Virus record (IMG/VR): IMGVR_UViG_3300030419_003599
Coordinates: 1-64,000 of that record
Direction: 5' to 3' (one strand)
Length of the DNA stretch: 64,000 nt
Origin: a virus
Part shown: positions 1 to 20,600 of the stretch, one piece after another
Layout: every line of letters starts with the position of its first letter
Position numbering within the stretch: position 1 is the first letter of the stretch
Position numbers and translations under genes: made by a program
Notes under the pieces: model-generated
Seen by the model: the letters and a program-made list of their open reading frames with translations, nothing else
Databases searched by the model: none
Told to the model about the DNA's origin: nothing

Positions 1-3000
1 GGGTTTAGTTCAGAGTTCCAAGACATCCACACAGGCGAACCTATGGACCTCGCTTGGCGATTGCTCAAAGCACCACTTGACTTTGAATCTGTCCGTGATG
101 TAGGGGTTGTTGAAGAAGGGGGCTTTCCTTATCGGAGGTTTGAGGCTGATTTCATAGACCCTGAAACACAAGAACGGCTACCCGCCTTCGCTCGTCTGTC
201 CGATGATGGAGTGGGTGTAGGCCGTATTCAAGACCCTGACCCCGAATCTCTTCTAAGAAATAGGGCGTTCCACATGATACATCCTTATGGTGATAAAGGG
301 ATTTATCCATATTCTATCGGCACAGATAAAAACTTTAGAGGCCGAGGCTATCAAGAAGCCCTTTTGAATTTGATAATGCGTTTAGCCGAAGCAGAGGGAA
401 AAACATTCTACGAGCCACCTCAATCCTCCAAAACGGGTGATGGTAATATGTTCGCCCAAAGAATGCGTGAAAAATATGGTGATAAAGATGTTGAGGTAAT
501 AACGGGCGAACCAATGGACCTCTCTATGCGGTTGCTCAAAGGTAAGTTTGATTTAATACCAATGGAGGCTGCTAATGAATTATTGATGTTTCATGATGAC
601 CCTACAATCATAAGATGGCATAATGATAAATATGGATTAGGTTTGAGTGAAGAAGGTTTGTCCCAAGATGAAACGGATGAATTACTTAGTCATATAATAG
701 ATAGCGATACTGCATTTGAGCCTTCGGTCCCGGGTGGGATAAGTCATGCAGAAAATGTTGAACAATATGAAAAAGAGACAAGAAAACCCGCAAGACCTAT
801 GGGACTGAATATGCAATTAGGAGATGTTCCTGTCATTGACCCTACTAAGCCCGAAACTTGGAAAGACGGTCCCGGCACCACTTGGGTTGGGGGAAAACCT
901 ACAGTATCTCCGCAGATAACCCAACAACCATTTCCTTACGACTTTGATTACATTCACCAAGGCGAACCAATGGACCTCGTTTTCCGGTTGCTTAAAGCAC
1001 AACAAACACTCTATGCTTATGACCCTTCATTTATTGAAGAAGGCTTTCAACCCAATATTCAAAATGTAATTATTGCATCAAAGCCCGGTGCTAGAGATAT
1101 TAGTAACGAAGAGCAAAGTAAATTGCATGATGAGATGTTGAGGGATATTTCTGAATTAGATGGCTCTCATCGTATTAAGATAATAAGCGCTCGTGGGCGT
1201 AGTAATGAATGGGGTGACGAACATTCGTTTATGCTTACAAATGTCCCTGATGATATGATGCCCCATATTTTTTCATTGGCTGATAAATATGGTCAAGATT
1301 CTATATTACACTCACCAAAAGGAACAGCAGGAACACAATTTGTAGATAGTAGTGGTGAAGTAACTGGTGGTTTAGAAGAAGGTGGGTTTACTATAAAAAA
1401 GCCTGAAAACTATACTGAGTTTCCAACAGGGCAAAAATACGCATATGGTGATTATGTTACGGCGAGCGAACCAATGGACCTCGCTATGCGGTTGTTGAAA
1501 CTTGAATTAGCACCACCTATGACTCAAGGTGTTGAAGAGCAAGTACCAATGCAAGAAGATATACCTATGGTTGAAACTATGGATGAAGATGACTGTTGTG
1601 AAAAAGTTCGCGCATTTATTATTCAACAAAACCCGAATGTGCATGAATCTATTATTGAAAGGATTCGGAATATGCCGTGTGAAGAACTTCAATCTAATTT
1701 GAATTACAATGCAGTAGCAAACTTGGTTGGTTGCGGTGGCTTTAGCGAAGCGGACCAAATGAAATACGCAGGCGAGCCGATGGACATCGCTATGCGGTTG
1801 CTCAAAGAGGCTCGCCCTCATGCTCTCATACCTAATTTTGATTTACGACACATGCTTAATCCTAAATCTGATATACAAGAGCAATTGATAAGGCAACATG
1901 TTCCTCATGCTCTTTCCAATGCTGAATCAGCAACAGAAGTTTACAATCAACTTTTAGAAGAAGCCAAAATAAGAGAAGAAGAAACCGATTACTTCCCTTT
2001 ACCTCAAACTCAAATTGAAGATTACGGAGAGCAACACCCGCCTATTTTTCGTTACAACGCTACAAATGCGGTAACATATAGACCCGACTTTCAAGATATT
2101 CACACAGGCGAACCAATGGAAATCGCTATGCGGCTGCTCAAAGAAGAGGTTGATGACGAGGCTTTCAAACGGTCTGCTTACGGTTTAATGGATGAGGGAT
2201 GGGCTGACCATTTACCCGAAGATTTTGACCATGAAGGTTTTGATGCAGAAAACTACAATGAAATTATTGATAGAGAATATCCCACGGGTCAAAGTGGATA
2301 TAGCCCCGGAATAAAAGAATTACGAAGGTCGCTATACAACCGTTATGAAAGCCCCGAAGAAAATGAAAAGCGTTTTCGTGACTTAATGGATAACCCTACT
2401 CGTGAACCTATACTTGTCGTTAGAGATAAGAATGGAGAAGAGCATATTATTGCCGGCCATCATAGAATGGCGGCGAACATTGAGTCCAACAGACCACATC
2501 TTCCCGCTTTGATATTGGATATGGACAAGGATATTCAAACAGGCGAACCAATGGACATCGCTATGCGCTTCCTTAAGGCCCCATTTTACGAATACAGTAT
2601 GCCGACTTCCCAAATCACAGAAAACATTGTGCCTTTCGCCGAAGCAATGAATGAAGGGGAGGAGGATTGGCAATATATCCAGCCTAGAGCCCCAGATGCC
2701 CGAGCCCGAGAGCATTTGGCAGAACAAATGAAAGAGAGGAATATTGCTCAAACATCCCCTGCCTTGGGTCAGCCCATAATCCCCGGTGATGAGGACACTT
2801 TACATATCGGAAATCTCATTGCTGAATTGATGATGCGAGAAAATCCTGAAATCTTAGACCAATTGCCTCCCGGTGCTCGGGCCTCAATGCATTGGGGCAA
2901 TTTCCCAAAACCGAATATCATTTATCCATCAGAGCATTCCAAACAGCGAGTCCCATACCCCATGAAAGACTTGCATAGCGTCTTTTATCAGATACCGGGC

Positions 3001-3618
3001 GGAAAAGTATCACCCATTACAATACAGCCCACTCCCCCTTTCAGAGTGACCGAGCCCACTCAATTCATTCCTGCTGGTTCATTAGCAGAATGGCAGAAGG
3101 AGATGTTTGATGCTAGAAATCTGGAGCACGGACTGGAAACTCCAGCCCTGAGAGATTTACACTATCAGAGGCCCGAATTGGTGGAGGTGGCTGCTGCTGC
3201 ACCTGCTGCTCCGGCGGGAGCACTAGTCGCAACGGGCACAAGAGTACCTCCCGGATTGGAACACTTATTCAAAATCCCGCAGCAGGGACGCAGGGCAGGG
3301 CGGATAGTTTTTGCTGGCCCTCAGAGAGCCAGAAAATGGGCCAGCCCAGAGACAGGTTTTCCACACCAACTAAAGACGGTGAGTGAGTCTATGGCGAATA
3401 TGCAGCCAGAGCAGGCCAAGGCGTTCTACAGTGCACTATTACAGGCATGGATGGACAAAGGTATCTCCTTGGACGATTTGACAGGATACACTGGGAGAGG
3501 AGGACGGGACATGTCGGGGGTATCAGGATGGGAGGACGCTATTGCTGGACTCAAGAAGAAGAGTGAACCTATAGATATCGCTATGCAATTACTCAAAGTT
3601 GAACTTATGCGCAAATAA
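1..3618 (+). CDS. Modular polyprotein-like protein (5'-truncated by window edge): unrelated domains separated by 8 copies of a GEPMDLAMRLLK motif; includes GNAT-like and ParB/Srx-like modules
   Basis: Frame is open from base 1 (GFSSEFQDIHTGEPM...), so ATG43 is internal to a repeat. Module 1 has GNAT motif A (IGTDKNFRGRGYQEALL); module 6 has a ParB-like signature (EPILVV...IIAGHHRMAA). Confidence 0.85.
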   Translation, partial: GFSSEFQDIHTGEPMDLAWRLLKAPLDFESVRDVGVVEEGGFPYRRFEADFIDPETQERLPAFARLSDDGVGVGRIQDPDPESLLRNRAFHMIHPYGDKGIYPYSIGTDKNFRGRGYQEALLNLIMRLAEAEGKTFYEPPQSSKTGDGNMFAQRMREKYGDKDVEVITGEPMDLSMRLLKGKFDLIPMEAANELLMFHDDPTIIRWHNDKYGLGLSEEGLSQDETDELLSHIIDSDTAFEPSVPGGISHAENVEQYEKETRKPARPMGLNMQLGDVPVIDPTKPETWKDGPGTTWVGGKPTVSPQITQQPFPYDFDYIHQGEPMDLVFRLLKAQQTLYAYDPSFIEEGFQPNIQNVIIASKPGARDISNEEQSKLHDEMLRDISELDGSHRIKIISARGRSNEWGDEHSFMLTNVPDDMMPHIFSLADKYGQDSILHSPKGTAGTQFVDSSGEVTGGLEEGGFTIKKPENYTEFPTGQKYAYGDYVTASEPMDLAMRLLKLELAPPMTQGVEEQVPMQEDIPMVETMDEDDCCEKVRAFIIQQNPNVHESIIERIRNMPCEELQSNLNYNAVANLVGCGGFSEADQMKYAGEPMDIAMRLLKEARPHALIPNFDLRHMLNPKSDIQEQLIRQHVPHALSNAESATEVYNQLLEEAKIREEETDYFPLPQTQIEDYGEQHPPIFRYNATNAVTYRPDFQDIHTGEPMEIAMRLLKEEVDDEAFKRSAYGLMDEGWADHLPEDFDHEGFDAENYNEIIDREYPTGQSGYSPGIKELRRSLYNRYESPEENEKRFRDLMDNPTREPILVVRDKNGEEHIIAGHHRMAANIESNRPHLPALILDMDKDIQTGEPMDIAMRFLKAPFYEYSMPTSQITENIVPFAEAMNEGEEDWQYIQPRAPDARAREHLAEQMKERNIAQTSPALGQPIIPGDEDTLHIGNLIAELMMRENPEILDQLPPGARASMHWGNFPKPNIIYPSEHSKQRVPYPMKDLHSVFYQIPGGKVSPITIQPTPPFRVTEPTQFIPAGSLAEWQKEMFDARNLEHGLETPALRDLHYQRPELVEVAAAAPAAPAGALVATGTRVPPGLEHLFKIPQQGRRAGRIVFAGPQRARKWASPETGFPHQLKTVSESMANMQPEQAKAFYSALLQAWMDKGISLDDLTGYTGRGGRDMSGVSGWEDAIAGLKKKSEPIDIAMQLLKVELMRK
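31..3597 (+). repeat. Dispersed 39-bp in-frame repeat, consensus ~ACAGGCGAACCAATGGACMTCGCTATGCGGTTGCTCAAA; copies at 31, 502, 958, 1462, 1768, 2104, 2539, 3559
   Basis: Read directly. Spacings 471, 456, 504, 306, 336, 435 and 1020 nt are all multiples of 3; the last copy is the most diverged. Confidence 0.95.
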
Positions 3619-3735
3619 TAGCCGTTTGGTCGCAATCATGCTTAGGAAGCATGAAAACGCTATGATATTGGCCGCATTTTGAGCAAAGTACCTTTACATC
3701 CATGGTCAAGGGGAAGCATTGCCCTCTTATGAGGC

Positions 3736-4707
3736 TTGTCAGTAAATGCTTACTTAGAAAATGGTGTATTTTGCTGCACTTACTGCATCGGGTGTAACTT
3801 CTACACTTATGTTAAGAACCCTATTCGCACTATCGTGCCTCCGAGCCTGCGAATCTATGAAGTAGGGCCTAGAGATGGGCTACAGAACTCAAAAGTGCGA
3901 TTTTCAACATCTGAAAAGGTTGAACTTATTAAAATGCTAGAAAATGCCGGTATTTCTCATATTGAAATGGGTTCATTCGTAAATCCGGCTTTAGTCCCGG
4001 CCATGTCGGATACTGCGGCTGTATTTAGAGAAGTAATAGGCCAAATAGATGCTAAAACTGAGTTAGGCGCTCTTATTCCTAATGAAAAGGGCTTCAAAAC
4101 CGCAATTATGACTGGTTTAACCCATTTTAACATCTTTTTTTCTCCATCGGAGGCTTTTAACGCCCGAAATCTCGGAAAAACACGAAATGAGGCGTTTTTG
4201 CACTTCAAAAATGTATTGAAAGATATCCCTAAAGAAAATATCCGAGTTTATGTGTCATGTGCGTTTGGTTGCCCATTTGAAGGTGAAATTGACTCAAATC
4301 TACTGAAAAAAGCGATTCAAGACGCAAATGAACTAGGTTCAACTGTTGTTCTTTGTGATACAGTCGGAAAAGCGAACCCAAAAGCAGTAGAACGGGTTTT
4401 ACATCTAGTTGATTCAGGCATTAAAGCCGAAATTGCTTTACATTTACATGAAGGGGTTAGAGGACGCTCCGGTTTATTTGAAAATATAGAGACAGCGGTA
4501 GGACTTGGGGTGCATCAATTTGATACTAGTATTGGCGGTTTAGGTGGTTGCCCATTTATGCCGGGTTCTGGAGTGAATGTGGCTACCGAAGACCTTGTTG
4601 AATGGGCAAATGAGCGTGGGTTAGACACAGGAGTTTGCGAAAATGCTCTAGCGGAGGTCGCAGCATTTGTGGCAAGCCGCATTAGTCCTATGGAGGTGGC
4701 GCAATGA
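3736..4707 (+). CDS. hmgL: Hydroxymethylglutaryl-CoA lyase (DRE-TIM metallolyase); likely true start GTG 3835
   Basis: IYEVGPRDGLQN N-terminal motif, FGCPFEG, LCDTVG, LHLH metal-binding histidines, GLGGCPF and NVATEDLV motifs. Confidence 0.92.
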   Translation: MSVNAYLENGVFCCTYCIGCNFYTYVKNPIRTIVPPSLRIYEVGPRDGLQNSKVRFSTSEKVELIKMLENAGISHIEMGSFVNPALVPAMSDTAAVFREVIGQIDAKTELGALIPNEKGFKTAIMTGLTHFNIFFSPSEAFNARNLGKTRNEAFLHFKNVLKDIPKENIRVYVSCAFGCPFEGEIDSNLLKKAIQDANELGSTVVLCDTVGKANPKAVERVLHLVDSGIKAEIALHLHEGVRGRSGLFENIETAVGLGVHQFDTSIGGLGGCPFMPGSGVNVATEDLVEWANERGLDTGVCENALAEVAAFVASRISPMEVAQ

Positions 4708-5133: not shown

Positions 5134-5180
5134 CCTTGCGCATTCCGCAAGTAATGGCCCCTCACGACCTCCCGACAGTG

Positions 5181-5200: not shown

Positions 5201-5259
5201 ATCACCGATTTAGTGAGGGTGCCACTAACTTTTAGAACTGAGTCTCTTTACGAGGTGTC

Positions 5260-5667: not shown

Positions 5668-5806
5668 ACTTATCATCTGAAGGCCGCTCTTTGGGCTTTT
5701 GTCTAATTATTAGTTCATCTTCTATAGGATAGAGCATGCCAAATAAAGCCCCGAATAGAAATGCCCCTACCCAAAGTGCAGCATGGATGACGAGAGAGTA
5801 GTCCAT
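5657..5806 (-). CDS. Small membrane protein (49 aa; not in ORF track)
   Basis: TAATG coupling to the 5806..7251 gene; MDYSLVIHAALWVGAFLFGALFGMLYP hydrophobic segment. Confidence 0.55.
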   Translation of the reverse strand: MDYSLVIHAALWVGAFLFGALFGMLYPIEDELIIRQKPKERPSDDKFKA

Positions 5807-7251
5807 TAACGGACCCCTACTGATTTTAGGGTCCCTCTCTCTTTGAAATGTCTTGCTCGGTTGGCATGAGGGTCTTCTTCAACAAGTGTATGCTGACGAG
5901 TATGAGAAATATCAGGGCCGCCTCGTCCATATATACCGCGTTTGCGCCTCTCCCGATTGAGGTCTTCTCGGTATTTGACCCTTTTAGGATTTGATTCATA
6001 CTCAGTATCGTATTCTACTTTATGTCGTAAAGCCTCTGGACTTGTGGCGTGTTTGAGAAGCCTAAAAGCAAGGTCCATTGGTTCGCTAGCCAAATGGTAA
6101 TCTGGGTCATAGTCCCAATCAGTAGGTTCATTGATTTGCTCTGTCGGCTTTTCTGGTTTTGGTCGTACATCTTCCCAGTAAGGGAGGCTTGCCGAAGGGA
6201 CCGGCCTGTTGGGATTCGGATACGGGTTTGGCGTCAATCTGGTTTGTCCTCGTGCGTGCTTCCACGGTTCTTTCCCAAGTTGGGGGGGAGTTAATGGGGG
6301 TTGTTTTAATTCCTCAGATATATGTTCGCTCCATGGTACAGTAGTAATATCAGGGCGTAATGAGCCCCATTTTTCAGGGAGATGGAAATGACTTATTGTA
6401 TCAAATAATGTGTCACCCTCTTCCTCACCTAATTCCATATTATGTAAAGGGCCGAGTTCTGCAAAATGAGGGATTTTACCTAATTTACGGCCCGCTGCAC
6501 TACGCAGCCCTTTCGGTATTAACTTCATGGCTCTTGCTGCTAACCCCTGACCTTTGTCTGTGCGCGCTGAACTCATAAGTGCCCCTTCTCTACCAAGTAT
6601 TTGTTGTCCTAATAATGTCCCTAACCCTTGGCCTTCATAGCGAGGGTCAATTTGAATATAACTGACATGGGGACCCGCCATACTAGCGCGACCTATTGGT
6701 ATCATGCCTTTAGGGGCGTATGCTTCTTCATGAGGCAACAAACCTGTGTCTGGGTCGTAGAATCTTCCAGATGCATTTAGACTAGAAGGCGTATAATCCC
6801 CGCGATAAAAAGAGCCCCCCCATGATTCGCTTGGGCTTACTGCTCCTTTTGGAGCCCAAAGGGCATATTGTTTCTCCCCAAATAAATCGGACAATATACC
6901 CTTCATGTATTCATCTCTCACATCAACATCATCATCATCTTCCAATTCATCCCAATTATCGTGATACCAATCATATATTCGTTTTAATTTTGATGTAGAA
7001 GGGTCTCTTGTCGTCAAATCATTAGAGAGGTTGTAGTAATCGGCGAGGGCATTCCATTGGGGTCGCTGTGTAATTAAAGATGTAAGATGGAAATCGCTCG
7101 GTTTTAAGCCTAAGAGGCGCTTTTTATTATCTTGCGGAGAGCCAGTATCTGGTTTTTCTACTGCATCGCCTAGCGGTTTGGGCATGGCTCCCCAATCACT
7201 AAGAGTGGTCTGCCGTGCCTTCAAAAAAGACCACGATTTATCTATGCCCAT
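5806..7251 (-). CDS. Modular protein: leader + PIP-box-like motif + GNAT-like domain, then repeat motif and a basic HNH-like C-terminal module
   Basis: MGIDKSWSFLK|ARQTTLSDW; VSYIQIDPRYEGQGLGTLL (GNAT motif A); ASEPMDLAFRLLK at 6052-6090; C-terminal DISHT...HANRARH. Confidence 0.75.
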   Translation of the reverse strand: MGIDKSWSFLKARQTTLSDWGAMPKPLGDAVEKPDTGSPQDNKKRLLGLKPSDFHLTSLITQRPQWNALADYYNLSNDLTTRDPSTSKLKRIYDWYHDNWDELEDDDDVDVRDEYMKGILSDLFGEKQYALWAPKGAVSPSESWGGSFYRGDYTPSSLNASGRFYDPDTGLLPHEEAYAPKGMIPIGRASMAGPHVSYIQIDPRYEGQGLGTLLGQQILGREGALMSSARTDKGQGLAARAMKLIPKGLRSAAGRKLGKIPHFAELGPLHNMELGEEEGDTLFDTISHFHLPEKWGSLRPDITTVPWSEHISEELKQPPLTPPQLGKEPWKHARGQTRLTPNPYPNPNRPVPSASLPYWEDVRPKPEKPTEQINEPTDWDYDPDYHLASEPMDLAFRLLKHATSPEALRHKVEYDTEYESNPKRVKYREDLNRERRKRGIYGRGGPDISHTRQHTLVEEDPHANRARHFKERGTLKSVGVR

Positions 7252-7258
7252 GGCCCTG

Positions 7259-7336: not shown

Positions 7337-8494
7337 TTGATGCCCTCCGTTTTAGTGGAGCCTCCTATTGAAAAGGCAGCGCCTCTCGCTCTCGCCCCTA
7401 TTGCTGCAGGCACTGCTGCTACTGCTGGTGGTGTGGGTTTGGGCGCAAGAGCATTGGGTGCCATAGGAAGGTTATTCGGAAAAAAGCCGAAAGCGCCTAA
7501 AGCGCCTAAAGCGCCTGCTTCATTGCCTGCTAGTTCTAAAACAGCAATCAAACGCCCTACCCCAGTCGGTCATGTACCCGAGCCCCCTTCCCCAATAAAA
7601 CCAATAGCGCACTCTGACCCTTTTCAACATACACTAGATGTCATGCCTAAGCAACCGGGCGTACATACTGGTGCAGGCACAACAGTTACGCAAGAGGCTC
7701 TGGATATAGGAGGTCATACTGGTGCAGGCACAACAGTTACGCAAGAGGCTCTGGATATGAATATGGCGAAACCAGAGGTAAATCCTGTAGTGAGTGGTTT
7801 CAAAAGTGGGGCAGGGCAAGCGCTTGGATATGGTGCGCTAGGGGGCGCAATGACAGGAGGAGGAGGAGGCCAAAATCCTGCAATCCAAACTGCCCAACAG
7901 AGTGCTGCACAACAACAGCAGCACAATATGGATATGCAACAACAGGCTACTCAAGCCGCTGGTACTACTGCTGGGACTCAACCCGGTGTTGCATATGGTG
8001 ATACAGCCAAAAGTCTTGATAATTGGAAATTACTCCAAGAAGCAGATGCTCTTCGTAGCGGTGGAGACCCTTCTACTGCTAATCGTTTTGTGGCTGTGTC
8101 CAGAGCATTACAAAAACCGCAAGAGATTCGTAATAAGTTTATCCAAGATTATGGGCACCGAGCAGCCGAATTGCTTGGCGAAAAGGAACCAGAGTGGAGA
8201 GAGGCAGAGCATCTTTATGAGCAAGGCAAACAAAGTGCTGATTATAGAGATATGAGACAATCTCCGAGTGAATACGATGCTGAACAGCGTAACCAGTTTT
8301 TTGCTATGATGAGAAGATTAGGCATAGGTAAAGAAAGAGAACTGGCCGCTCAACAACGAGCAGAAGAGATGTTATCGCAACTAAGGCAAGATGACCCTTC
8401 TCAATATTTTTCCGATTTACCATTTAGAGTAGAAGGCTCAAATAATCCTATGGATTTAGGGCAAGAATGGCAAGAACTGCTTAAGCCAGAATGA
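7337..8494 (+). CDS. Low-complexity Ala/Gly/Gln-rich protein with motif variants (IEKA near N-terminus; NPMDLGQEWQELLK at C-terminus)
   Basis: ORF track plus motif inspection. Confidence 0.7.
   Translation: MMPSVLVEPPIEKAAPLALAPIAAGTAATAGGVGLGARALGAIGRLFGKKPKAPKAPKAPASLPASSKTAIKRPTPVGHVPEPPSPIKPIAHSDPFQHTLDVMPKQPGVHTGAGTTVTQEALDIGGHTGAGTTVTQEALDMNMAKPEVNPVVSGFKSGAGQALGYGALGGAMTGGGGGQNPAIQTAQQSAAQQQQHNMDMQQQATQAAGTTAGTQPGVAYGDTAKSLDNWKLLQEADALRSGGDPSTANRFVAVSRALQKPQEIRNKFIQDYGHRAAELLGEKEPEWREAEHLYEQGKQSADYRDMRQSPSEYDAEQRNQFFAMMRRLGIGKERELAAQQRAEEMLSQLRQDDPSQYFSDLPFRVEGSNNPMDLGQEWQELLKPE
7664..7758 (+). repeat. Tandem duplication with 51-bp period (44 bp identical; HTGAGTTVTQEALD x2)
   Basis: CATACTGGTGCAGGCACAACAGTTACGCAAGAGGCTCTGGATAT at 7664 and 7715. 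A separate AAAGCGCCT x3 lies at 7490-7516. Confidence 0.95.
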
Positions 8495-9092: not shown

Positions 9093-9101
9093 GGACTCTA
9101 T

Positions 9102-10064: not shown

Positions 10065-10425
10065 TACCATGAGCCCGCTTGACGCCGCTTGGACAATTTT
10101 GAAATCTCGCCCTGTTTCATCTTCTGGAAAGCAGTATTCTCCTCAAGAATTGCAGCAATTGCGGGCTTTCGTTAATGCTAATATAGAAAGTCCTGACCCT
10201 AATTTACAGGCTCAAGCGCAGCAAATACTTGAAGAACTCACTACAGCCATGTCTTTTGCGGGCGGTCGTACCTCATTCAACACTCCTTCAGAGCCCATTG
10301 TCCCCGGCGCTGGGCCAGTTGTCCGTGGGGCCGGAGGCCCTGCTGCATCAGTAGGCGTTCGCCCGCCTTTACCTCCAGAACCTTCAGAAGAGGATGAGGA
10401 CGATGATAAGGCATTGCCCTCTTGA
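10057..10425 (+). CDS. Hypothetical protein with leader variant MSPLDAAWTILK|S
   Basis: GGGTGA RBS before ATG 10069; Pro/acidic tail. Confidence 0.7.
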   Translation: MGDTMSPLDAAWTILKSRPVSSSGKQYSPQELQQLRAFVNANIESPDPNLQAQAQQILEELTTAMSFAGGRTSFNTPSEPIVPGAGPVVRGAGGPAASVGVRPPLPPEPSEEDEDDDKALPS

Positions 10426-12312: not shown

Positions 12313-12572
12313 TTAAAATGATTAAACCTCCAGAAATGACAGGATTTGTACCTAAAGGGCTTGCTCATACTACTATGGATATTTTTAATCCCAAAAAGAA
12401 AGTAATAGTTGATATGATAATGGTTCAACTTTTGAGTCTCATAATTGTGTTTATGGGCGTCCTTGCTTTTGCCAACCAAAAGTTGGATGCTGCAGATATG
12501 TCATATGTCATGGCAGGTTTATTTTTTAGTCTCATAATGCTAGGCGGAGTTTATGGTCGTATAGCGAGATAG
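12309..12572 (+). CDS. Small 2-TM membrane protein (holin-like topology)
   Basis: Two hydrophobic helices with a short basic C-terminus. Confidence 0.65.
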   Translation: MIKMIKPPEMTGFVPKGLAHTTMDIFNPKKKVIVDMIMVQLLSLIIVFMGVLAFANQKLDAADMSYVMAGLFFSLIMLGGVYGRIAR

Positions 12573-13558: not shown

Positions 13559-13974
13559 AAGGCGTCCATGTCCCAATGAATATTTTATTGGCTTATGGCA
13601 CTCCATTCACCCATTTGTTACATGGGTCTGGCGCATTAGAAGATGATGAAATTGGTCCATTTTATGATGGAGTCCATGAATGTGTAAGCCGTTGGCTCCA
13701 TTATCTCAATCAACAGGTAGAGAATCCTCAAATGCAATCTTTCTATACACCAGTTGAGAATCTTCGCTCAGATTTGCTAGACCTTATTCATGAAGATGGT
13801 TGGGATACTTTTGAAATTAGAGATAGAGCGCGCCATGCTCTTATTGAGTTTGAACATATTTGTTCGGATATGGCTCGCTCTTTTACTCATCCACCTAGAG
13901 TGAAAGAGTTTTATCACAATCTTGCCAGCAGAAGTCGTGCTACGCTTGAGCGATTAGTGGAAGGTGAAGTATAA
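13555..13974 (+). CDS. Hypothetical protein
   Basis: Coupled ORF with GAGGTG RBS. Confidence 0.7.
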   Translation: MKGVHVPMNILLAYGTPFTHLLHGSGALEDDEIGPFYDGVHECVSRWLHYLNQQVENPQMQSFYTPVENLRSDLLDLIHEDGWDTFEIRDRARHALIEFEHICSDMARSFTHPPRVKEFYHNLASRSRATLERLVEGEV

Positions 13975-15830
13975 TGCCTAGCGGGACAGGAGGAATGGGG
14001 CGCGGGTCTGATACCCGAATGTATAGTCCTCGTTCAGAATCTACCCGAATGTTTGGTTATGAAGAGGATGATATTGGTCATGCTCATGGTTATGGTGACC
14101 CCGAACTTGCGGCGGAAAGCAGAGAAAAGAAGAAGCGAGAAAAAGAAGAAACCAAACAACGGCAAAAAATACATCATATCAAAATTAGACATAAAGATAT
14201 TCTTGATGAATTACCCCCTAGTATGGGTGAAGTTTCACAAGAAGGTGATAATGAACTTGCACCTAAAGATGAAGAGCAAGGCGAATTATCTGCTTTGACA
14301 GGTACTTCCGGTTCTCGCGGGGCCATGTTGGACCAAGCCATTGGTGCCAAAACTGGTACAGGTTCGGCGCTTGGTGGTACTCCGCCATTACTCGGTCCAA
14401 TGGGTGTGTATCATTCTGAGCCGATGGAGAACGCTTGGTCTGAGTTGTTGAAAAACAAGAAAGAACCTTTTACTCATTATGGCACCGATGGGCGTCCATT
14501 CAGACCAATAGCCACCCTTTTACAAGGTGATGTAGAGCCGGGTCAAGCGGGCTATATAGCAAACCGAGGTGATGAGACAGGGATACGGATACCCCATATT
14601 CCAGCAAAAGAACGCGCTGATTTTGATGACGAAGTTGAAGCGCACAGACAAGAAATGTATAGACAGGGGTTAGTAGATGACGATGAGGAGTTTGCTCTTT
14701 TGAACTCTTTAATAGACCAATTTTATGGTGCAGATAAGTCTCAATACCCAATAGAAGATGATTATGAAGTGCAGGTAGAACCTGTACTTGAAGATAGAAG
14801 TGAAACTGCTCAAATTGGCTCACCGATGGATTATACTCCCGATGAAATCTATGAGATGTTTAGAAACGGCGAGCCAATGGAGGTGGCTTGGTCTGAGTTG
14901 ATGAAATCTAAAAAAGATAAGGGCGAAGCGCCAATGGCTGCTGGCGAAATTGGTTCAGCGGGAACTACCACTCAACGCCGAAAAGAACATGCCAAAAAAT
15001 GGGCTCAACCTAAGTTCAAGGTCGCTCCCGGAGGGCGCAGACCTACTACAGCGACTTCCCGCCGAGCAAAAGCCCGTAGCCGAACTTTAGCACCTCGTCA
15101 TCGTGTTCATAATATCAAAGGCGGGCTAATGCAAAGTCCTTTGGCTGTGCATATGTCTCACCTTGGTGTCCAAACTAAACAACCTCTACGGCAATTCCCT
15201 GAAAAGTATAGGCAATATTACGGTCAGCAACTAAGGCGCCGTTTAACTGGTGATATTGCACAAACTGTAGCACCTCACGGGTTATTTGGTGAGCGCACTC
15301 AGAATCCCGGCCCTACTGGAGGAGGTCGTCTTCCGGGTCAATTGCCGGGACAAGCCGCTGCTGCTGGTATGCCATCTTTGCGTAGATTGGCTAGACCAAG
15401 AGTGCCCCGTTTGCGAAAACCTACTGGCTTTAGCCCTATGACTCCGCCTACTATCCCAACTGCCCCACCTCTCCCACAACCAGCCCAAGTAGGGTTGCCT
15501 TCTTCTAATATCCAAATGTCAGGAAAAGTAGGAGTAGGGTCCCCTCTCAAAAAGAATATTGATATTTTACGCCCCGGGACTTTTGCTTTCATGCATAGTC
15601 GGGAGATTGCTAAACTTTTGAGAGAATTGAAAGAGAAGTTAGAGCGGCATGGAAGGATGCGTAAAGGCAAGGGCACTGCTGATACTAGTGGTGCAGGAGA
15701 CGATAAACCCGATGCTCCAGCAAATGGGCCAAAGCAAACCAGCAAACTTGAAGGAGGAACCGAATCTAGTCCTGATGACGATGCAAGAAATTGGGGTATG
15801 GACCCTTCTGCTATTATAGGGAGTCATTGA
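13974..15830 (+). CDS. Low-complexity protein with alternating acidic/basic segments and two internal motif copies
   Basis: HSEPMENAWSELLK at 14412-14453 and NGEPMEVAWSELMK at 14865-14906. Confidence 0.75.
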   Translation: MPSGTGGMGRGSDTRMYSPRSESTRMFGYEEDDIGHAHGYGDPELAAESREKKKREKEETKQRQKIHHIKIRHKDILDELPPSMGEVSQEGDNELAPKDEEQGELSALTGTSGSRGAMLDQAIGAKTGTGSALGGTPPLLGPMGVYHSEPMENAWSELLKNKKEPFTHYGTDGRPFRPIATLLQGDVEPGQAGYIANRGDETGIRIPHIPAKERADFDDEVEAHRQEMYRQGLVDDDEEFALLNSLIDQFYGADKSQYPIEDDYEVQVEPVLEDRSETAQIGSPMDYTPDEIYEMFRNGEPMEVAWSELMKSKKDKGEAPMAAGEIGSAGTTTQRRKEHAKKWAQPKFKVAPGGRRPTTATSRRAKARSRTLAPRHRVHNIKGGLMQSPLAVHMSHLGVQTKQPLRQFPEKYRQYYGQQLRRRLTGDIAQTVAPHGLFGERTQNPGPTGGGRLPGQLPGQAAAAGMPSLRRLARPRVPRLRKPTGFSPMTPPTIPTAPPLPQPAQVGLPSSNIQMSGKVGVGSPLKKNIDILRPGTFAFMHSREIAKLLRELKEKLERHGRMRKGKGTADTSGAGDDKPDAPANGPKQTSKLEGGTESSPDDDARNWGMDPSAIIGSH

Positions 15831-15831
15831 A

Positions 15832-17931
15832 ATGAGCCAAATCATTGTCCTTAACCCTACAGAGACTTTACTCAAGTCATTTTTCGCTAATGTAGTTGAG
15901 CCTTCAATTATTCTCAAAGGCGATGGTGTCCTTTACATGGGACCCGAGGGTAACAAAATGATGGGTTTCCCTCCCCAACATATGTTCAATATGGACCCAA
16001 ATCAACCAGACCACCCTATGTGGTCATGGAATCCTCATACTGGAGAACCTACCGAAGGTGGTATGCATCCGATTGATGGAGTAGTAGCCCATTTGCAGCA
16101 GTATCTTGATAAAATGGGTATTAGGGCAGATGCTCGTTCCATAGTTCAAGATTCAATTGACGCCTTTAATCGTAAGCATATGTCTGATAATCATCATTTA
16201 CCGGCATTTGATTCCCCTGAATGGCGTAAGTTAGTTATCGGCCCTCATCCTACTAATGTGCCGGGTCATGAAATAGCAACTCGCGGTCATGACGGTAAGT
16301 TATTTACTCATTATGGTAATCGTGGCGGCTCAATTGGTTTATTCCCTGAGAGCGGAGCAGTCCCATTTTTCAGCGAACTTAATGATATTCTCACAGATAT
16401 GGGTTTGCATCAAGCAGAGGGAGAATTGGAGTTCGCTAAATATCCCAATATATCAGCCCAGCATTTGTCCCCTAATGTTTATCGTACTAAAGCGAATGAA
16501 TTAGCGGCGCACGGTTTAGTGCCGGGGCATATTCTTGAACAACACGCCCCAGAAGGAATGATGTTTGATGGAGCGCATGGGGCGCGACATACTTGGGAAG
16601 TGATGCATCATTTACCAGCGGCTATGTTCATGGGTACAGGTTATGCGCCTAGAGCCAATAGTGCAACAGTGCGTGAAGCAGAAGGTAATATCGCCGCCGC
16701 TCTTCAAAATATAGACCCTAAACAAATACCAAATCATCCAATTACTCTCCATGATGGGACTAAAACTACCTTCGCCGAGGCTATATCTAATCCTGCTACT
16801 CGCAGTACTTTAATTCAAGATATGGCGCGCAGTCCTGCTTTACAATTCATGTTTGCTGGAGCGGGAAGCCCTGCCACACGAACTAAGACCCGCACAATTA
16901 TGGGGCCTCTTCTTGATGTAGAGGGTTTTGATGTTCACCGTGGTCATACTGATACTGGTACTAGAAAAAGAGGACGCAGCCCTCATTCTTATGCTGTAAA
17001 TGTCGCTGCCGCTGCCGCCGCTCATGGTCCATGGGAAGCAGACCCTACTCGTTCAGCAATGGCTGATAATTCGCATGGTTTACCTGAAGGTGTAGACCAC
17101 AATGAAATCGGCAGGCGTAGAGAAATTATTGAAGGCATGGGAGACATGATGGCTAGAGCCCATGGGCATACTGAACGATGGACTCCAGATTGGGATAATC
17201 TCCCCACTGATATGCCCGCATCTCGCGCAATTGGTAATTTAGGTCAAGTAATGCATCAAGAAGTGCCTGAACATTTCATTAATCGTTTCTATACAGACAT
17301 GAATGCCGCTCCTACAAGAGATATACCTATCCCGGGCATGGGTGCTGGTCCAACTGCTCAAAGAGAGCAAACCCCGCCTGAACCTTCTATACCTGAAGTT
17401 AGAACTCAACCAGCAGCACCTGCCGCTCCTGCCGCTCAACCAATAGCCCCCCGAATTGAGCCCCGGGGACTTACTCCTGAATTACAAGCCGCTCGTAGGC
17501 AGATAGGGGCGGCCCAAGGAGTAGAAGGGGTGAGGCAAACGGCTAGAGAAATGGGAATGCCACCGCTTCCTGAAAACCCGGCGCATGTGAGCCGCTTCCA
17601 GCATTCTTTCGGTGACCCACACCAAACTCTTCTTGACCAATGGATGCGCTCTAATGATTCTGTAGAAATGTTAGACCGCATTGAAAAGGCAATGGAAGAA
17701 CTACAACTCAAAGATGCCCAAAGAGATGTAGCAGTTTTGAAACACCTTCCTAATCGCCAAAATCTCAATATCAATATTGAAGGCGATGTTGCTTTAATGG
17801 CCAATAAATTGGGGCTCACTAAGCACGATATACGAAGTCTTGCCATTTCCAAAGGAGATTGGCACCGTGTGGCTGAAGTATTTGATGTCCCGGCGCCTGT
17901 TGTAGGGGCAGTAAAGGTGGTGTTCTCATGA
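15832..17931 (+). CDS. His/Pro-rich hypothetical protein, putative virion-internal protein
   Basis: N-terminal TLLK|S and IILK|G sites; PIP-like QTLLDQW near the C-terminus. Confidence 0.7.
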   Translation: MSQIIVLNPTETLLKSFFANVVEPSIILKGDGVLYMGPEGNKMMGFPPQHMFNMDPNQPDHPMWSWNPHTGEPTEGGMHPIDGVVAHLQQYLDKMGIRADARSIVQDSIDAFNRKHMSDNHHLPAFDSPEWRKLVIGPHPTNVPGHEIATRGHDGKLFTHYGNRGGSIGLFPESGAVPFFSELNDILTDMGLHQAEGELEFAKYPNISAQHLSPNVYRTKANELAAHGLVPGHILEQHAPEGMMFDGAHGARHTWEVMHHLPAAMFMGTGYAPRANSATVREAEGNIAAALQNIDPKQIPNHPITLHDGTKTTFAEAISNPATRSTLIQDMARSPALQFMFAGAGSPATRTKTRTIMGPLLDVEGFDVHRGHTDTGTRKRGRSPHSYAVNVAAAAAAHGPWEADPTRSAMADNSHGLPEGVDHNEIGRRREIIEGMGDMMARAHGHTERWTPDWDNLPTDMPASRAIGNLGQVMHQEVPEHFINRFYTDMNAAPTRDIPIPGMGAGPTAQREQTPPEPSIPEVRTQPAAPAAPAAQPIAPRIEPRGLTPELQAARRQIGAAQGVEGVRQTAREMGMPPLPENPAHVSRFQHSFGDPHQTLLDQWMRSNDSVEMLDRIEKAMEELQLKDAQRDVAVLKHLPNRQNLNINIEGDVALMANKLGLTKHDIRSLAISKGDWHRVAEVFDVPAPVVGAVKVVFS

Positions 17932-18815
17932 AGCCAATAGATTCTGCTTGGGCGATTCTTAAGAATCCGGCTTTAGAAACAATGACACCTGCCGCTGTAG
18001 ATGCCGCAGGACCCGGTTTTTTCCTTGGACCACAAGGAATACAAGGGCAGAGTGGTCCTTTTATGTTCAATATGGGGGGTAGAGGGGCTAATCGCCCTAG
18101 TACAGCCAGACTCCTTCATGGTTTAGCCACAGGTCAAGCACCAAGAGGGACTAAGCGCGCACTTGCAGGAAGAGCGGCTGGGACTGGTTTAGGTCTGGTC
18201 AATGCTTTATTGGCTGCAGAAAGAGCACAGCGTGGTGGAGATATTGAAAGTGCTCTTGGTGCCGCTTATGCTGGCTATCAAGTACCTAAACAAAGTATTA
18301 CTGGTGCCGCAGAAGGGGAATGGAGCCATAAACCAATGTTGGATGCCCATGGGCGACCTATGCGAAAACCCAGATTAGATGAAGAAGGTAATCCAATATT
18401 AGACAAAACAGGGCGACCTATAATGGACCCAATGTTAGAGGAAGAACAAACACCCGGTGGCGCAATCGGAGGTCAGATGGAGGCCGCTCAACTTGGTCGT
18501 TCTTTTTACGATAATATAGTACAAGAAGAAGACCCTATTAATTTCCCTAGCGCTGCATCCGAATATGGCAACCTTCCTCCCCCTAAAGAAACATCTCTAC
18601 AAGCAGGGGTCCCAAATACAGCACCTACACTTGGTCAACTAAGAGCCTCAGCGACAGACACAATGCCACAAGGAGACCCTAATAGAATAACAAGTTGGAC
18701 AGGTACAGCAGTAGACCCAGCAGCGGACGCAACGCAGAATGTGGGGTTAGATGTATTCACAAACAGTGAACCGATGGACTTGGCTTTCCGTATGTTAAAG
18801 GGGGCTATGAGATGA
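17928..18815 (+). CDS. Hypothetical protein bracketed by motif copies
   Basis: MKPIDSAWAILK at the start; NSEPMDLAFRMLK at 18762-18800. Confidence 0.75.
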   Translation: MKPIDSAWAILKNPALETMTPAAVDAAGPGFFLGPQGIQGQSGPFMFNMGGRGANRPSTARLLHGLATGQAPRGTKRALAGRAAGTGLGLVNALLAAERAQRGGDIESALGAAYAGYQVPKQSITGAAEGEWSHKPMLDAHGRPMRKPRLDEEGNPILDKTGRPIMDPMLEEEQTPGGAIGGQMEAAQLGRSFYDNIVQEEDPINFPSAASEYGNLPPPKETSLQAGVPNTAPTLGQLRASATDTMPQGDPNRITSWTGTAVDPAADATQNVGLDVFTNSEPMDLAFRMLKGAMR

Positions 18816-20278
18816 GTGATGTTGAGAAACTCATTGAAGAAATGGACCGAGAAATGGCGGCCAAATCATTTGAGTTCTTTTTTACTGATATACTCGGGTA
18901 TGATTTCAATGACCATCACCGCGAGTGGGTAGATTGTTTGGACAATCACCGCTACTATGTAGTTAAAGCGGCTCGTGACCACGGTAAAAGCACTTTATTC
19001 ATGTCTTATGCTCTATGGATAGCGGCATTTAATCCCGGTACTCACATTATGATATTCAGTCACTCTCTTGAGCAGACTCTTGAGCATATGCGTATGATTC
19101 GTAGCCATATTGACGCTGAACCCATCCTACAATACCTCAAGCCACAAGGTATGCCATGGGCTAAATCCTACATGGAGTTCACAAACGGCAGCCGTTTGAT
19201 GGCTAAGTCGGTCGGCGGGGCAACTCGTGGTTTCCACCCTGATGTTGTAGTATGCGATGATATTCTTTGGGGTTCAACTGCTGGAGAGTTGGCTAGAACC
19301 GCTGATTGGTTTTATTCAGTTCTACTCCCTGTTCTTCACCACACTGGCCGTCTTATGATGGTAGGGACTCCATTTTCATATAATGACCTTTACACTGAAT
19401 TAGAATCCAAAGATGCTTTTGAAGTTGGAACTTTTCCTGCTATGGATTCTGATGGTATAGCATTATGGCCTAACCGTTGGGATGAAGAAGCACTAATGCA
19501 AAGGCGTATGTCAATGCCTGCTATCCAATTCGCCCGTGAGTATCTCTGTGAGCCTATTCACGATGTAGCAAGTATGTTTCCAATGGATATTTTGGAACAG
19601 GCGCGTGATGAAAATCTACGATTACTTGACCGGGCCGAAAGTGAATATGATGAAGAAGGTGAAAATATCGGCGTTTTTGGGCAACACTTTGTCGGTTGGG
19701 ACCCTGCTATTGCTTCTGATAAAAATGCAGACTATACAGCCATAGTAACAATGCGGACATTAGATGACGGCATTAAACAAGTAGTCCATGCCATCCACGA
19801 AAAGGGTTTGAACTCCGAAGCACAGAAACGCCATATCATTTTACTCAATAGTCGTTTCCAACCTGACCTTATTGAATTAGAAGGCAATAATTTTCAAAGA
19901 ATGTTTGAGACCGAATTGAGAGGTATGGATATACCAATTCGTACTTTTATGACAACTAGAGCACGAAAAGAGAGTTTATTCATGTCTCTTCTTCTCGCTT
20001 TTGAGCAGGGGCAAATTAGAACACCTTATGGGGATGAGAAGAGCAAAATATTTACTCATAAATTAGAGACTGAATTGAATAGATTTGGTATGACTAAACA
20101 AGGTAAGTTAGAGAGCGTGGGTGTGCATGACGACCTTGCTATGGGGCTTGCGTTAGCCAATTGGGCTACTAAAGAGTTCAAGGGCTCTGTTGTGATGTTA
20201 GATGATTTTCTTCCCGGGTTTGGGGAATGGGTCCAAGAAGAATTAGGTGGAGGAAGCCACCCATGGTATGTGATGTAA
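18812..20278 (+). CDS. terL: Terminase large subunit
   Basis: Walker A AARDHGKST, Walker B VVVCDD, coupling motif VGTP, RNase H-like nuclease motifs GWDPA...ADYTA and HDDLAM. Confidence 0.93.
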   Translation: MSDVEKLIEEMDREMAAKSFEFFFTDILGYDFNDHHREWVDCLDNHRYYVVKAARDHGKSTLFMSYALWIAAFNPGTHIMIFSHSLEQTLEHMRMIRSHIDAEPILQYLKPQGMPWAKSYMEFTNGSRLMAKSVGGATRGFHPDVVVCDDILWGSTAGELARTADWFYSVLLPVLHHTGRLMMVGTPFSYNDLYTELESKDAFEVGTFPAMDSDGIALWPNRWDEEALMQRRMSMPAIQFAREYLCEPIHDVASMFPMDILEQARDENLRLLDRAESEYDEEGENIGVFGQHFVGWDPAIASDKNADYTAIVTMRTLDDGIKQVVHAIHEKGLNSEAQKRHIILLNSRFQPDLIELEGNNFQRMFETELRGMDIPIRTFMTTRARKESLFMSLLLAFEQGQIRTPYGDEKSKIFTHKLETELNRFGMTKQGKLESVGVHDDLAMGLALANWATKEFKGSVVMLDDFLPGFGEWVQEELGGGSHPWYVM

Positions 20279-20279
20279 G

Positions 20280-20600
20280 ATGACTGATGCCTTAACTTGC
20301 CATTATTGCGGCCAGCGATTTAACCACCCAATGCAGCGTTTGATTCACGAAGAGCGAATGCATGAGGGCGGAGGAGGCTCCGAGAAAGACGCTATGTTCC
20401 AGACAGGTGAGCCTATGAATCTCGCTTGGCGTTTATTGAAAGAAAAAGAAGATGCCCCTAATTATCGTTGCCCGGCTGATGACCCGAAACAAAGTTGCGG
20501 GACTTGTAAGCATTGGGTCAAAAAAAGTGATGAAATAGGCACTTGTTCCCTCTTTAATTTCCAGTGCAATGCCAAATGCACTTGCGATGCTTGGAGTTGA
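20280..20600 (+). CDS. C2H2 Zn finger + repeat motif + HiPIP-like Cys domain
   Basis: CHYC...HEERMH; TGEPMNLAWRLLK at 20403-20441; NYR...CGTCKHW...GTCSLF...CDAW. Confidence 0.7.
   Translation: MTDALTCHYCGQRFNHPMQRLIHEERMHEGGGGSEKDAMFQTGEPMNLAWRLLKEKEDAPNYRCPADDPKQSCGTCKHWVKKSDEIGTCSLFNFQCNAKCTCDAWS

What the first reader, a model, noticed from the sequence alone, without database searches (positions are those of the whole stretch)
1..20600. Candidate capsid-addressing / protease-release tag system shared by many unrelated genes
Seen: one short amphipathic peptide, (G/S)EPM(D/E/N)xA(W/M/F)xxL(L/M)K, occurs 8x in ORF 1-3618. It also occurs at 6052-6090 (minus strand), 14412, 14865, 18762 and 20403, and as a variant ending the 7337-8494 gene. 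Shorter versions start stand-alone genes (MKPIDSAWAILK, MSPLDAAWTILK, MGIDKSWSFLK, MEEAWNALVIRK). The flanked domains are unrelated to each other. I did not see the motif in terminase, hmgL, the GTPase or the tail genes. Known precedent: T4 internal proteins carry a ~10-aa capsid-targeting sequence removed by the prohead protease. Inference: this is an analogous but much expanded tag that loads diverse effectors into the prohead, with cleavage after the final Lys, for delivery into the host with the DNA.
Basis: partly seen in the sequence, partly recalled or inferred. Interest (0 to 1): 0.93.

Follow-up and report, generated by a model that had tools for sequence, protein, structure and literature searches.

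The report
Shared address-and-cut tag, magrovirus proteins
An abundant ocean virus of archaea places one 12-residue helix ending in Leu-Leu-Lys before, between and after dozens of unrelated, fast-changing protein modules; the tag most likely loads them into the virus head and marks where the head protease cuts, but neither step has been shown.

Summary
The peptide [G/S]-E-P-M-D-x-A-[W/M/F]-[R/Q]-L-L-K occurs about 20 times on this 108.6-kb contig. The DNA pattern gives 11 matches in the window against 0.00 expected. All copies lie in accessory genes next to the head genes. None lies in the replication block or the structural genes.

The contig is a group-A magrovirus, a tailed virus of marine Poseidoniales archaea. 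The tag is restricted to this lineage. It was absent from 596 Gb of prokaryote genomes.

The tag joins shuffled, mostly unknown modules: 164 families among 279 modules. Its end resembles three conserved sites where the virus's only recognisable protease, an HK97-family prohead protease, is expected to cut:
- both edges of the protease domain;
- an L-L-K in the capsid protein's N-terminus.

HK97 itself cuts after Lys.

Two sister lineages carry shorter tags of the same kind. In one of them, position -3 of the tag changes together with the protease junction.

Internal tags are also conserved at synonymous sites, so their DNA probably serves as a recombination joint.

Best reading: an address-plus-cleavage tag for capsid cargo (about 0.5). 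Packaging, cutting and delivery are all inferred.

The scan noted the same idea on four other magrovirus genomes. No magrovirus paper I opened or searched mentions it.

The parts
1..3618 (+). 5'-open polyprotein with 8 tags (34-69, 505-540, 961-996, 1465-1500, 1771-1806, 2107-2142, 2542-2577, 3562-3597) separating modules of 90-328 aa
   Evidence: Modules are acidic (pI 4.1-5.9), have no Pfam match as a whole and give a weak PHROG ParB-like hit at residues 801-846.
5806..7251 (-). 481-aa gene with an internal tag at 6087-6052, followed by an 81-aa C-terminal module (phrog_6437 family, cyanophage Syn5 gp50-like). It has a weak N-terminal form at 7251-7219.
8447..8485 (+). degenerate tag-like end of gene 7337-8494 (P-M-D ... 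W-Q-E-L-L-K, then 2 residues and stop)
   Evidence: regex; not scored by the HMM
10069..10104 (+). N-terminal short tag (M-S-P-L-D-A-A-W-T-I-L-K) of a 118-aa gene
   Evidence: 22.3 bits
13974..15830 (+). conserved (core) 618-aa gene with two one-residue-longer tags (14415-14453, 14868-14906; E-P-M-E-x-A-W-S-E-L-[LM]-K). The C-terminal cargo 14907-15830 is basic and disordered.
   Evidence: homologue in 58 of 80 terminase-related loci; pI 11.3, net +33; 52 orthologues, median pI 11.0
17928..18815 (+). 295-aa gene in a hypervariable slot just upstream of terminase, with an N-terminal tag (17928-17963) and a C-terminal tag (18765-18800)
   Evidence: no homologue in 80 related loci; slot contents listed
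20280..20600 (+). 106-aa gene: 44-aa Cys/His module, tag (20406-20441), 52-aa Cys-rich module
   Evidence: (29.2 bits)
30579..31961 (+). HK97-family (Peptidase_S78) prohead protease fused to an acidic scaffold-like region. Candidate self-processing sites are I-T-L-L-K at 30645-30659 and F-R-I-L-K at 31101-31115.
   Evidence: S78, E 6.5e-10
32054..32068 (+). S-E-L-L-K in the N-terminus of the major capsid protein (gene 31967-33103); candidate propeptide cut after residue 34
   Evidence: L-L-K is kept after a Gly-rich stretch of variable length in lineages only 38-40% identical.

Best explanation
The peptide is a portable protein tag of group-A magroviruses. It is an amphipathic helix of about 9 residues (E-P-M-D-x-A-[W/M/F]) that runs into a hydrophobic-hydrophobic-Lys ending.

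Proposed mechanism:
- The helix docks tagged proteins to a component of the assembling procapsid (scaffold, capsid interior or the protease itself).
- The ending is a substrate site for the HK97-family prohead protease, which cuts after the Lys.
- Stand-alone proteins therefore lose an N-terminal tag.
- Polyproteins of up to 8 or more modules are cut into single modules inside the head.
- The modules leave with the DNA at infection.

The cargo is a hypervariable set of mostly unknown small domains, some of conflict type (ParB/sulfiredoxin-like, HD, SLOG, GNAT), plus one conserved very basic polypeptide.

A second layer exists. The DNA of the inter-module tags is kept nearly uniform, so it probably also acts as a homology joint at which modules are exchanged.

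Shown: the tag itself, its distribution, its helical and exposed character in a model, the look-alike sites in protease and capsid protein, module shuffling and codon uniformity.

Inferred: docking, cleavage, packaging and delivery.
For: (1) Enrichment and placement.
- 11 DNA-pattern matches against 0 expected.
- 20 HMM copies on the contig, all in accessory genes adjoining the head module.
- In four near-complete genomes, 41 of 43 copies (95%) are co-oriented with terminase and capsid genes. In one of them, tagged genes sit directly downstream of the capsid gene.
- In 80 terminase-related loci, tags occur only at fixed syntenic places, on the terminase strand, and never 3-11 kb downstream.

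(2) Short-linear-motif anatomy.
- A logo from 195 distinct copies carries 2.3-4.3 bits from -11 to 0.
- It falls to below 1 bit at +1 and to about 1.2 bits or less from -12 upstream.
- The AlphaFold2 model of tag-module-tag gives helices for both tags. The downstream tag sits on a low-confidence linker, outside the folded domain.

(3) Termini.
- Tags at extreme N-termini, and tags followed by only 2-7 residues, cannot serve to separate modules. They fit an address or propeptide.

(4) Protease link.
- The only recognisable protease is an S78 prohead protease.
- Its domain ends in F-R-I-L-K in all 9 distinct junction sequences collected from the capsid-related loci, and the motif is at least 90% conserved among 50 distinct homologues.
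- An A-x-[F/Y]-x-[I/L]-[L/I/V]-K boundary followed by variable sequence is the prevailing pattern among about 110 diverse representatives that aligned across this point; a few end in Q or E instead of K.
- A second site precedes the domain.
- The capsid protein keeps L-L-K after a variable Gly-rich stretch in three lineages.
- HK97 cuts at K103/S104 (PMC10275583).

(5) Co-variation.
- In a sister lineage the junction is F-D-I-L-K and 113 distinct N-terminal tags read M-x-W-x-x-[I/V]-L-K. Position -3 is D/N/E in 65% and R in 1 of 113.
- Here the junction has R and the tags have R/Q in 90%.

(6) Cargo.
- The conserved tagged cargo is basic: pI 11.3 here, median 11.0 in 52 orthologues.
- T4 precedent: diverse internal defence proteins share only a capsid-targeting sequence (PMC3012670).
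Against: - No proteomic or biochemical datum exists; the host is uncultivated.
- The look-alike F-x-I-L-K at the end of the protease domain lies inside the Pfam S78 domain. It may be conserved for folding rather than as a cut site.
- Genome-wide, the 5-residue pattern has one other non-tag hit besides the protease junction.
- Co-variation rests on two lineages. A third lineage (junction Y-T-I-L-K, tags ending [L/I/V]-V-K) does not show it.
- Untagged hmgL, GTPase, membrane and HTH genes are interspersed with tagged genes, so the region is not purely a virion-protein region.
- The timing of expression is unknown.
- One tagged gene here and one in a relative lie on the opposite strand.
- Twelve conserved residues are more than a protease site needs, and the docking partner is unidentified.
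Confidence: 0.5

Rival explanations
1. Processing signal only. The tag is a cleavage site that turns polyproteins into single modules in the infected cell's cytoplasm. The cutter is the prohead protease acting outside the capsid, or a host protease. There is no role in capsid loading or delivery.
For: The Lys is invariant and conservation drops sharply after it. The modules have beads-on-a-string anatomy. Look-alike sites occur in the protease and capsid protein.
Against: Many tags sit at the very N-terminus of small single-module proteins, or 2-7 residues from the C-terminus, where cutting separates nothing. Prohead proteases of this family are normally active only inside procapsids (established knowledge of HK97). 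No second protease was found.
Confidence: 0.15
2. Docking peptide for another hub. The helix binds a common partner that is not the procapsid and is not cut. Candidates are the virus-encoded chaperonin, a viral assembly factory component or a host protein. The peptide would concentrate or regulate many accessory proteins.
For: The conserved face has helical periodicity, including a strictly small residue (Ala at -5, 93%). The tag works at either end or internally. The virus encodes a thermosome-type chaperonin.
Against: Sister lineages reported to carry GroEL instead of thermosome (PMC5434244) have tags of the same kind. No replication protein carries the tag. The strict motif is absent from 185,579 prokaryote species' genomes, so host mimicry is unlikely. 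This reading leaves the resemblance to the protease and capsid sites unexplained.
Confidence: 0.12
3. Primarily a DNA element. The 36-nt sequence is a recombination joint for cassette shuffling, and the encoded peptide is merely a tolerated linker.
For: - Same-codon pairs within the tags number 247 of 462, against 154 +/- 12 expected from this genome's codon usage.
- Across 196 distinct copies from many contigs, rare codons dominate: CGG 0.48 against 0.09 background, CTC 0.48 against 0.11, ATC 0.71 against 0.20.
- Module families occur in many different neighbourhoods.
- The assembly breaks in a 77-nt repeat that begins in a tag.
Against: - N-terminal short forms keep the peptide while codon choice in their first half returns to near background (GAT 0.59, GCT 0.44).
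- Position -4 varies among W, M and F, and -6 between I and L, as expected of selection on the protein.
- Sister lineages conserve only a 6-7-residue peptide at N-termini.
- A linker would not need an invariant Pro, Ala, Leu and Lys.

The two readings are compatible. This rival concerns only which one is primary.
Confidence: 0.1

Closest known systems
Capsid targeting sequence (CTS) of phage T4 internal proteins IPI-III and Alt
   Same: A short conserved peptide is the only thing shared by a diverse, fast-evolving set of accessory or defence proteins. In T4 it loads them into the scaffolding core and can carry foreign proteins (PMC3012670). Its removal by the prohead protease is my own knowledge of the T4 literature and is not in the passages I read. 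The basic conserved cargo here recalls the DNA-associated internal proteins.
   Different: There is no sequence similarity. T4 uses a different protease (gp21) that cuts after Glu; that is my own knowledge and was not checked here. The T4 tag is N-terminal only and occurs once per protein. Here it is used at N-termini, C-termini and up to 8 times inside polyproteins. The host is an archaeon, and nothing is experimentally shown.
HK97 prohead protease gp4: cut at K103/S104 of the capsid protein, and the protease's own C-terminal capsid-targeting tail
   Same: The protease belongs to the same family (Pfam S78). P1 is Lys in HK97 (PMC10275583). The idea that a short peptide carried by the protease itself directs encapsidation is shared (Duda et al. 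2013, my own knowledge, not in the library searches).
   Different: In HK97 no set of cargo proteins is known to share the signal. Here the look-alike lies at the edges of the protease domain, not at its C-terminal tail.
Polyvalent proteins of phages and conjugative elements (Iyer et al. 2017, PMC5512222)
   Same: Many unrelated conflict-type domains sit in one polypeptide encoded next to virion genes and are proposed to be delivered with the DNA. ParB/sulfiredoxin-like and GNAT domains occur in both, and the HD_4 (RelA/SpoT-type hydrolase) hits here recall the paper's RelA/SpoT domains. Processing into units is proposed for both.
   Different: There the proposed processing is by an in-built zincin-like metallopeptidase domain, and no uniform inter-domain peptide is described. 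Here no such peptidase domain was found, and every joint is the same 12-residue tag.
Release (R) and maturation (M) sites of herpesvirus assemblin-scaffold proteins
   Same: A protease of the same fold class is fused to a scaffold. The cut sites share one consensus, and one lies exactly at the end of the protease domain (my own knowledge).
   Different: The consensus differs (Ala/Ser there). It is not used as a tag on cargo.
Cargo-loading peptides of encapsulins and encapsulation peptides of bacterial microcompartments
   Same: Short peptides, often amphipathic helices on flexible linkers, sit at either terminus or between domains and load unrelated enzymes into a protein shell (my own knowledge).
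   Different: They are not cleaved, are not viral, and show no sequence relation.

Membership tests
T4-type capsid targeting sequence | One short conserved peptide on otherwise unrelated accessory proteins of one virus | tested here: met
T4-type capsid targeting sequence | Strictly N-terminal, one per protein | tested here: not met
   N-terminal, internal (up to 8 per ORF) and C-terminal copies
T4-type capsid targeting sequence | Tagged proteins are found inside proheads and virions, and the tag is removed by the prohead protease | not testable with these tools
   Uncultivated host; no proteome is held
Substrates of an HK97-family (S78) prohead protease | The genome encodes an S78 protease next to the capsid gene | tested here: met
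   (PF04586, E 6.5e-10, above cut-off)
Substrates of an HK97-family (S78) prohead protease | The same site motif occurs at expected maturation boundaries of capsid protein and protease/scaffold | tested here: met
   Sequence level only. P1 Lys agrees with HK97 K103/S104.
Substrates of an HK97-family (S78) prohead protease | Tag and protease-junction residues change together across lineages | tested here: inconclusive
   Position -3 co-varies between lineages A (R) and B (D) but not in lineage C
Substrates of an HK97-family (S78) prohead protease | Cleavage demonstrated | not testable with these tools
   Needs enzyme assay or N-terminomics
Polyvalent proteins (Iyer et al. 2017) | 2-15 unrelated domains in one polypeptide, phage-encoded, near virion genes | tested here: met
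Polyvalent proteins (Iyer et al. 2017) | Signature domains (DdrB-like ParB, RelA/SpoT, GNAT, MuF, zincin-like peptidase) | tested here: inconclusive
   ParB/sulfiredoxin-like module: PHROG E 4.8e-4; Foldseek top hits sulfiredoxin, Noc and Osa at E 0.02. HD_4 x3 and GNAT x1. No peptidase or MuF domain was found among 150 modules.

The most novel reading that the evidence does not exclude
Magroviruses run a general cargo code. Any protein module bearing a short helix that imitates the prohead protease's own self-processing sites is loaded into the capsid and cut free. In group A the DNA encoding that helix doubles as the recombination joint, so the same 36 nt both addresses the cargo and lets the virus population reshuffle hundreds of effector cassettes. 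This would be a combined protein-sorting and gene-shuffling device, not described for any virus.
Probability: 0.3. Interest if true: 0.9.

Novelty: new variant of a known kind. Interest (0 to 1): 0.78.

Why it matters
Magroviruses are among the most abundant archaeal viruses in the surface ocean, and most of their genes have no known function.

If the tag is a capsid address and cut mark, it would:
- pick out, from sequence alone, the set of proteins these viruses inject into Poseidoniales cells; these are probably counter-defence and take-over factors;
- predict the specificity of an archaeal-virus prohead protease;
- give a testable rule (tag plus protease plus capsid protein in E. coli) for a host that cannot be grown;
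- be the first capsid-targeting system described for an archaeal virus, so far as I know and so far as the papers searched here show;
- offer a natural example of multi-cargo polyproteins, and a possible handle for loading foreign proteins into HK97-type shells.

The codon-level uniformity of the joints adds a concrete mechanism for the extreme turnover of accessory genes.

Tried and rejected
- **Known relatives.** Megablast and tblastn of the region and of ORF1 against 50,697 phage records found nothing. A 22-residue tag query also found nothing.
- **Host mimicry or provirus.** The strict pattern gave 0 hits in 596 Gb of prokaryote genomes.
- **One repeated domain.** Rejected: modules fall into 164 families, and Pfam names only 10 families among 150 modules.
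- **Second viral protease.** None was found in the remaining 67 proteins.
- **Replication-factor or clamp-binding motif.** Rejected: no replication gene carries the tag.
- **Chaperonin-specific signal.** Unlikely, since sister lineages reported to carry another chaperonin type (PMC5434244) have tags too.
- **Similarity of the tag to the protease's extreme C-terminal tail.** Examined by eye on the alignment; the spacing of hydrophobic residues differs, so it was not pursued.
- **Co-variation in a third lineage.** Not found.
- **Syn5 gp50 homology of the C-terminal module.** It gave no functional clue.
- **W-R-I-L-K inside sister-lineage capsid proteins.** This is a conserved core segment (S-G-W-R-I here), not a site.
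- **The look-up of encoding contigs.** I used the search for related loci instead.
- **Literature.** The magrovirus papers in the library do not mention such a motif.


Full report
**What the window is**

The window is the first 64 kb of a single 108,650-bp viral contig.
- It encodes a T4-type large terminase (18812-20278), a portal (21966-23744), an HK97-family Peptidase_S78 prohead protease (30579-31961) and an HK97-fold capsid protein (31967-33103).
- It has a 1863-aa head-module protein and a 5526-aa tail-region protein.
- A minus-strand block at 64-104 kb holds a thermosome-type chaperonin (E 2e-133), family-B DNA polymerase, SNF2 helicase, TFIIB, ERCC4, an RFC-like AAA ATPase and a PD-(D/E)XK nuclease.
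- Thermosome plus SNF2 plus a genome of about 100 kb matches group A of the magroviruses, tailed viruses assigned to marine group II (Poseidoniales) archaea (PMC5434244; PMC11706807).
- No GenBank phage record is close.

**The observation**

- The window has 11 DNA-pattern matches at up to 2 mismatches, against 0.00 expected.
- The contig has 20 HMM copies of 9.6-29 bits. The best score elsewhere is 5.8 bits.
- All copies lie at 106.9-108.6 kb or 0-20.6 kb. These are the two contig ends, which adjoin the head module.
- Beyond the window, three more genes carry the tag, one with three copies.
- The contig's last 77 nt are identical to window 1465-1541, starting in a tag. The assembly therefore broke in this repeat, and the order of modules around the ends is uncertain.

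**Anatomy**

A logo from 195 distinct copies reads [G/S]-E-P-M-D-[I/L]-A-[W/M/F]-[R/Q]-L-L-K.
- Pro is 98%, Ala 93%, the last Leu 99% and Lys 100% conserved.
- Information falls from 4.3 bits at Lys to below 1 bit at +1, and is about 1.2 bits or less from -12 upstream.

The pieces between tags are 59-381 aa long, median 148. They fall into 164 BLAST families among 279 modules, and the same family appears with many different neighbours. One C-terminal family has 16 members with 13 different neighbour contexts. The ParB-like family occurs stand-alone, N-terminal, internal and C-terminal.

Pfam names only HD_4, DUF5872, a SLOG family, DprA-like, GNAT and a few others among 150 non-redundant modules.

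An AlphaFold2 model of tag-module-tag has mean pLDDT 78:
- the upstream tag is a helix (residues 4-12);
- the domain is folded (14-166);
- a linker has pLDDT below 50;
- the downstream tag is a detached, low-confidence helix.

The domain's best structural matches are sulfiredoxin, Noc and the plasmid protein Osa. These are weak, at E 0.02. They agree with a G-G-H-R motif and a PHROG ParB-like hit.

**Distribution**

- The strict DNA pattern hits 59 stretches in IMG/VR and none in one genome each of 185,579 prokaryote species.
- Of 43 tag-bearing viral records searched, 37 hold a capsid protein 75-90% identical to this one, including all 10 that are at least 90% complete. The long tag therefore marks one virus lineage.
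- In 80 terminase-related loci, tags lie only on the terminase strand and at fixed places: about -10 kb, -5 to -3 kb, -1 kb and +1 to +3 kb. None lies in the 3-11 kb downstream.
- In four near-complete genomes, 41 of 43 copies are co-oriented with the structural genes. In one genome with terminal repeats, three tagged genes sit directly downstream of the capsid gene.
- The gene at -5 to -3 kb (here 13974-15830) is conserved, with a homologue in 58 of 80 loci. It always carries a one-residue-longer tag variant.
- Its C-terminal cargo is a Pro/Gly/Arg-rich polypeptide of pI 11.3 and net charge +33. The median pI in 52 orthologues is 11.0.
- The slot just upstream of terminase holds unrelated proteins in different genomes.

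**Link to the prohead protease**

The S78 protease is the only protease recognisable in the genome.

- Protease domain end. The domain ends in F-R-I-L-K, followed at once by a variable acidic region. This is conserved in 50 distinct homologues. Among about 110 diverse representatives of the family that aligned across this point, the domain mostly ends A-x-[F/Y]-x-[I/L]-[L/I/V]-K and is then variable; a few end in Q or E instead of K.
- Protease domain start. A second hydrophobic-hydrophobic-Lys site lies just before the domain: I-T-L-L-K here, [D/P]-F-x-I-L-K or D-F-L-L-K in sister lineages.
- Capsid protein. It keeps L-L-K after a Gly-rich stretch of variable length and sequence. This holds in lineages 38-40% identical and 62-67% identical to this one.
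- Precedent. HK97's protease cuts its capsid protein at K103/S104 (PMC10275583).

The last five residues of the tag thus match sites where self-processing and capsid maturation are expected. The caveats are real. The junction lies inside the Pfam domain and may be structural. The 5-residue pattern also has one other non-tag hit in the genome.

**Sister lineages**

- Lineage B. Relatives of a 48%-identical protease have 113 distinct N-terminal tags M-x-W-x-x-[I/V]-L-K on small genes. These genes are placed between portal and protease, and right after the capsid gene. Their protease junction is F-D-I-L-K (19 of 20). Tag position -3 is D/N/E in 65% and R in 1 of 113. In the present lineage the junction has R, and the tags have R or Q in 90%. 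That is co-variation.
- Lineage C. This lineage has junction Y-T-I-L-K and 8 distinct tags M-x-x-F-D-x-A-W-x-[L/I/V]-V-K. It does not show the co-variation.

I therefore rate the co-variation test as inconclusive.

**DNA layer**

- Within this genome, same-codon pairs in the tags number 247 of 462, against 154 +/- 12 expected.
- Across 196 distinct copies from many contigs, the preferred codons depart strongly from background. Examples are CGG 0.48 against 0.09, CTC 0.48 against 0.11, ATC 0.71 against 0.20 and GAC 0.78 against 0.40.
- The bias is strong in inter-module tags. It is largely lost in the first half of N-terminal short forms, which nevertheless keep the peptide.

So the peptide is selected in its own right. 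The internal joints are additionally homogenised at the DNA level. This fits recombination at the joints, the shuffled module contexts and the assembly break.

**Reading**

The best-supported explanation is an address-plus-cut tag for proteins loaded into the procapsid. It is analogous to the T4 capsid-targeting sequence, where diverse internal defence proteins share only that sequence (PMC3012670). Here it is built on an HK97-type protease and extended to polyproteins that resemble polyvalent proteins (PMC5512222).

Tags at extreme termini argue for a role beyond separating modules. The basic conserved cargo and the placement inside head modules fit internal virion proteins.

Docking, cleavage, packaging and delivery are all inferences, and I give the combined reading about 0.5. 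The rivals are cytoplasmic processing only, docking to another hub, and a primarily DNA-level joint. They are listed with their tests.

The scan noted the same idea on four other magrovirus genomes and twice more on this one. Those are unchecked notes and not independent evidence. None of the magrovirus papers I opened or searched mentions the motif.

Noticed in passing
window 1465-1541 and contig end (G000:C1:108574-108650): The last 77 nt of the contig are identical to an internal stretch of ORF1 that begins in a tag. This is an assembler-style repeat break, so the module order around the contig ends may be mis-joined or polymorphic in the population.
   Followed up: partly
L060:1127-2680 (contig 65127-66680, minus strand), and a TFIIB hit among contig genes beyond the window: The virus encodes a thermosome-type chaperonin (E 2e-133) and its own TFIIB/TFB (E 7e-39, with the zinc ribbon). 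It also has ERCC4, an RFC-like AAA ATPase and SAP/HeH domains. This is an archaeal-type transcription and replication toolkit.
   Followed up: partly
window 24969-30560: The 1863-aa protein between portal and protease matches the Snurportin1 m3G-cap-binding domain (E 2.8e-5, residues 1379-1479), a nucleotidyltransferase/ligase-type fold. It carries no tag.
   Followed up: no
window 17800-18815 and the same slot in L063-L142: In many relatives, the variable protein just upstream of terminase starts with another short N-terminal peptide, M-x-K-[I/V]-[L/F/Y]-V-[K/R]-K. This peptide again ends in hydrophobic-hydrophobic-Lys. Some of these proteins end with the long tag.
   Followed up: partly
window 31830-31850 (protease/scaffold residues about 418-425): A conserved [T/F]-[I/L]-x-K-S lies about 35 residues before the C-terminus of the scaffold region, inside otherwise variable sequence. 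It may be a second maturation site that frees the conserved C-terminal tail.
   Followed up: no
window 5809-6051 (minus strand): The 81-aa C-terminal module (phrog_6437) has homologues in marine cyanophages (Syn5 gp50, S-CBS2, P60, P-SSP phages; up to 47% identity over 68 residues). This suggests gene exchange between archaeal and bacterial viruses of the same waters.
   Followed up: partly
L107:10046-10606: In one relative the ParB-like module follows a DUF5872 module directly. That module's own conserved end, P-T-I-V-K, takes the place of the long tag, giving another hydrophobic-hydrophobic-Lys junction.
   Followed up: no
window 3736-4707 and 8529-12572: An HMGL-like gene (E 2.5e-36) and a cluster of membrane proteins, a GTPase-like protein and an HTH protein lie untagged among the tagged genes. 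The accessory region therefore mixes at least two kinds of genes.
   Followed up: no
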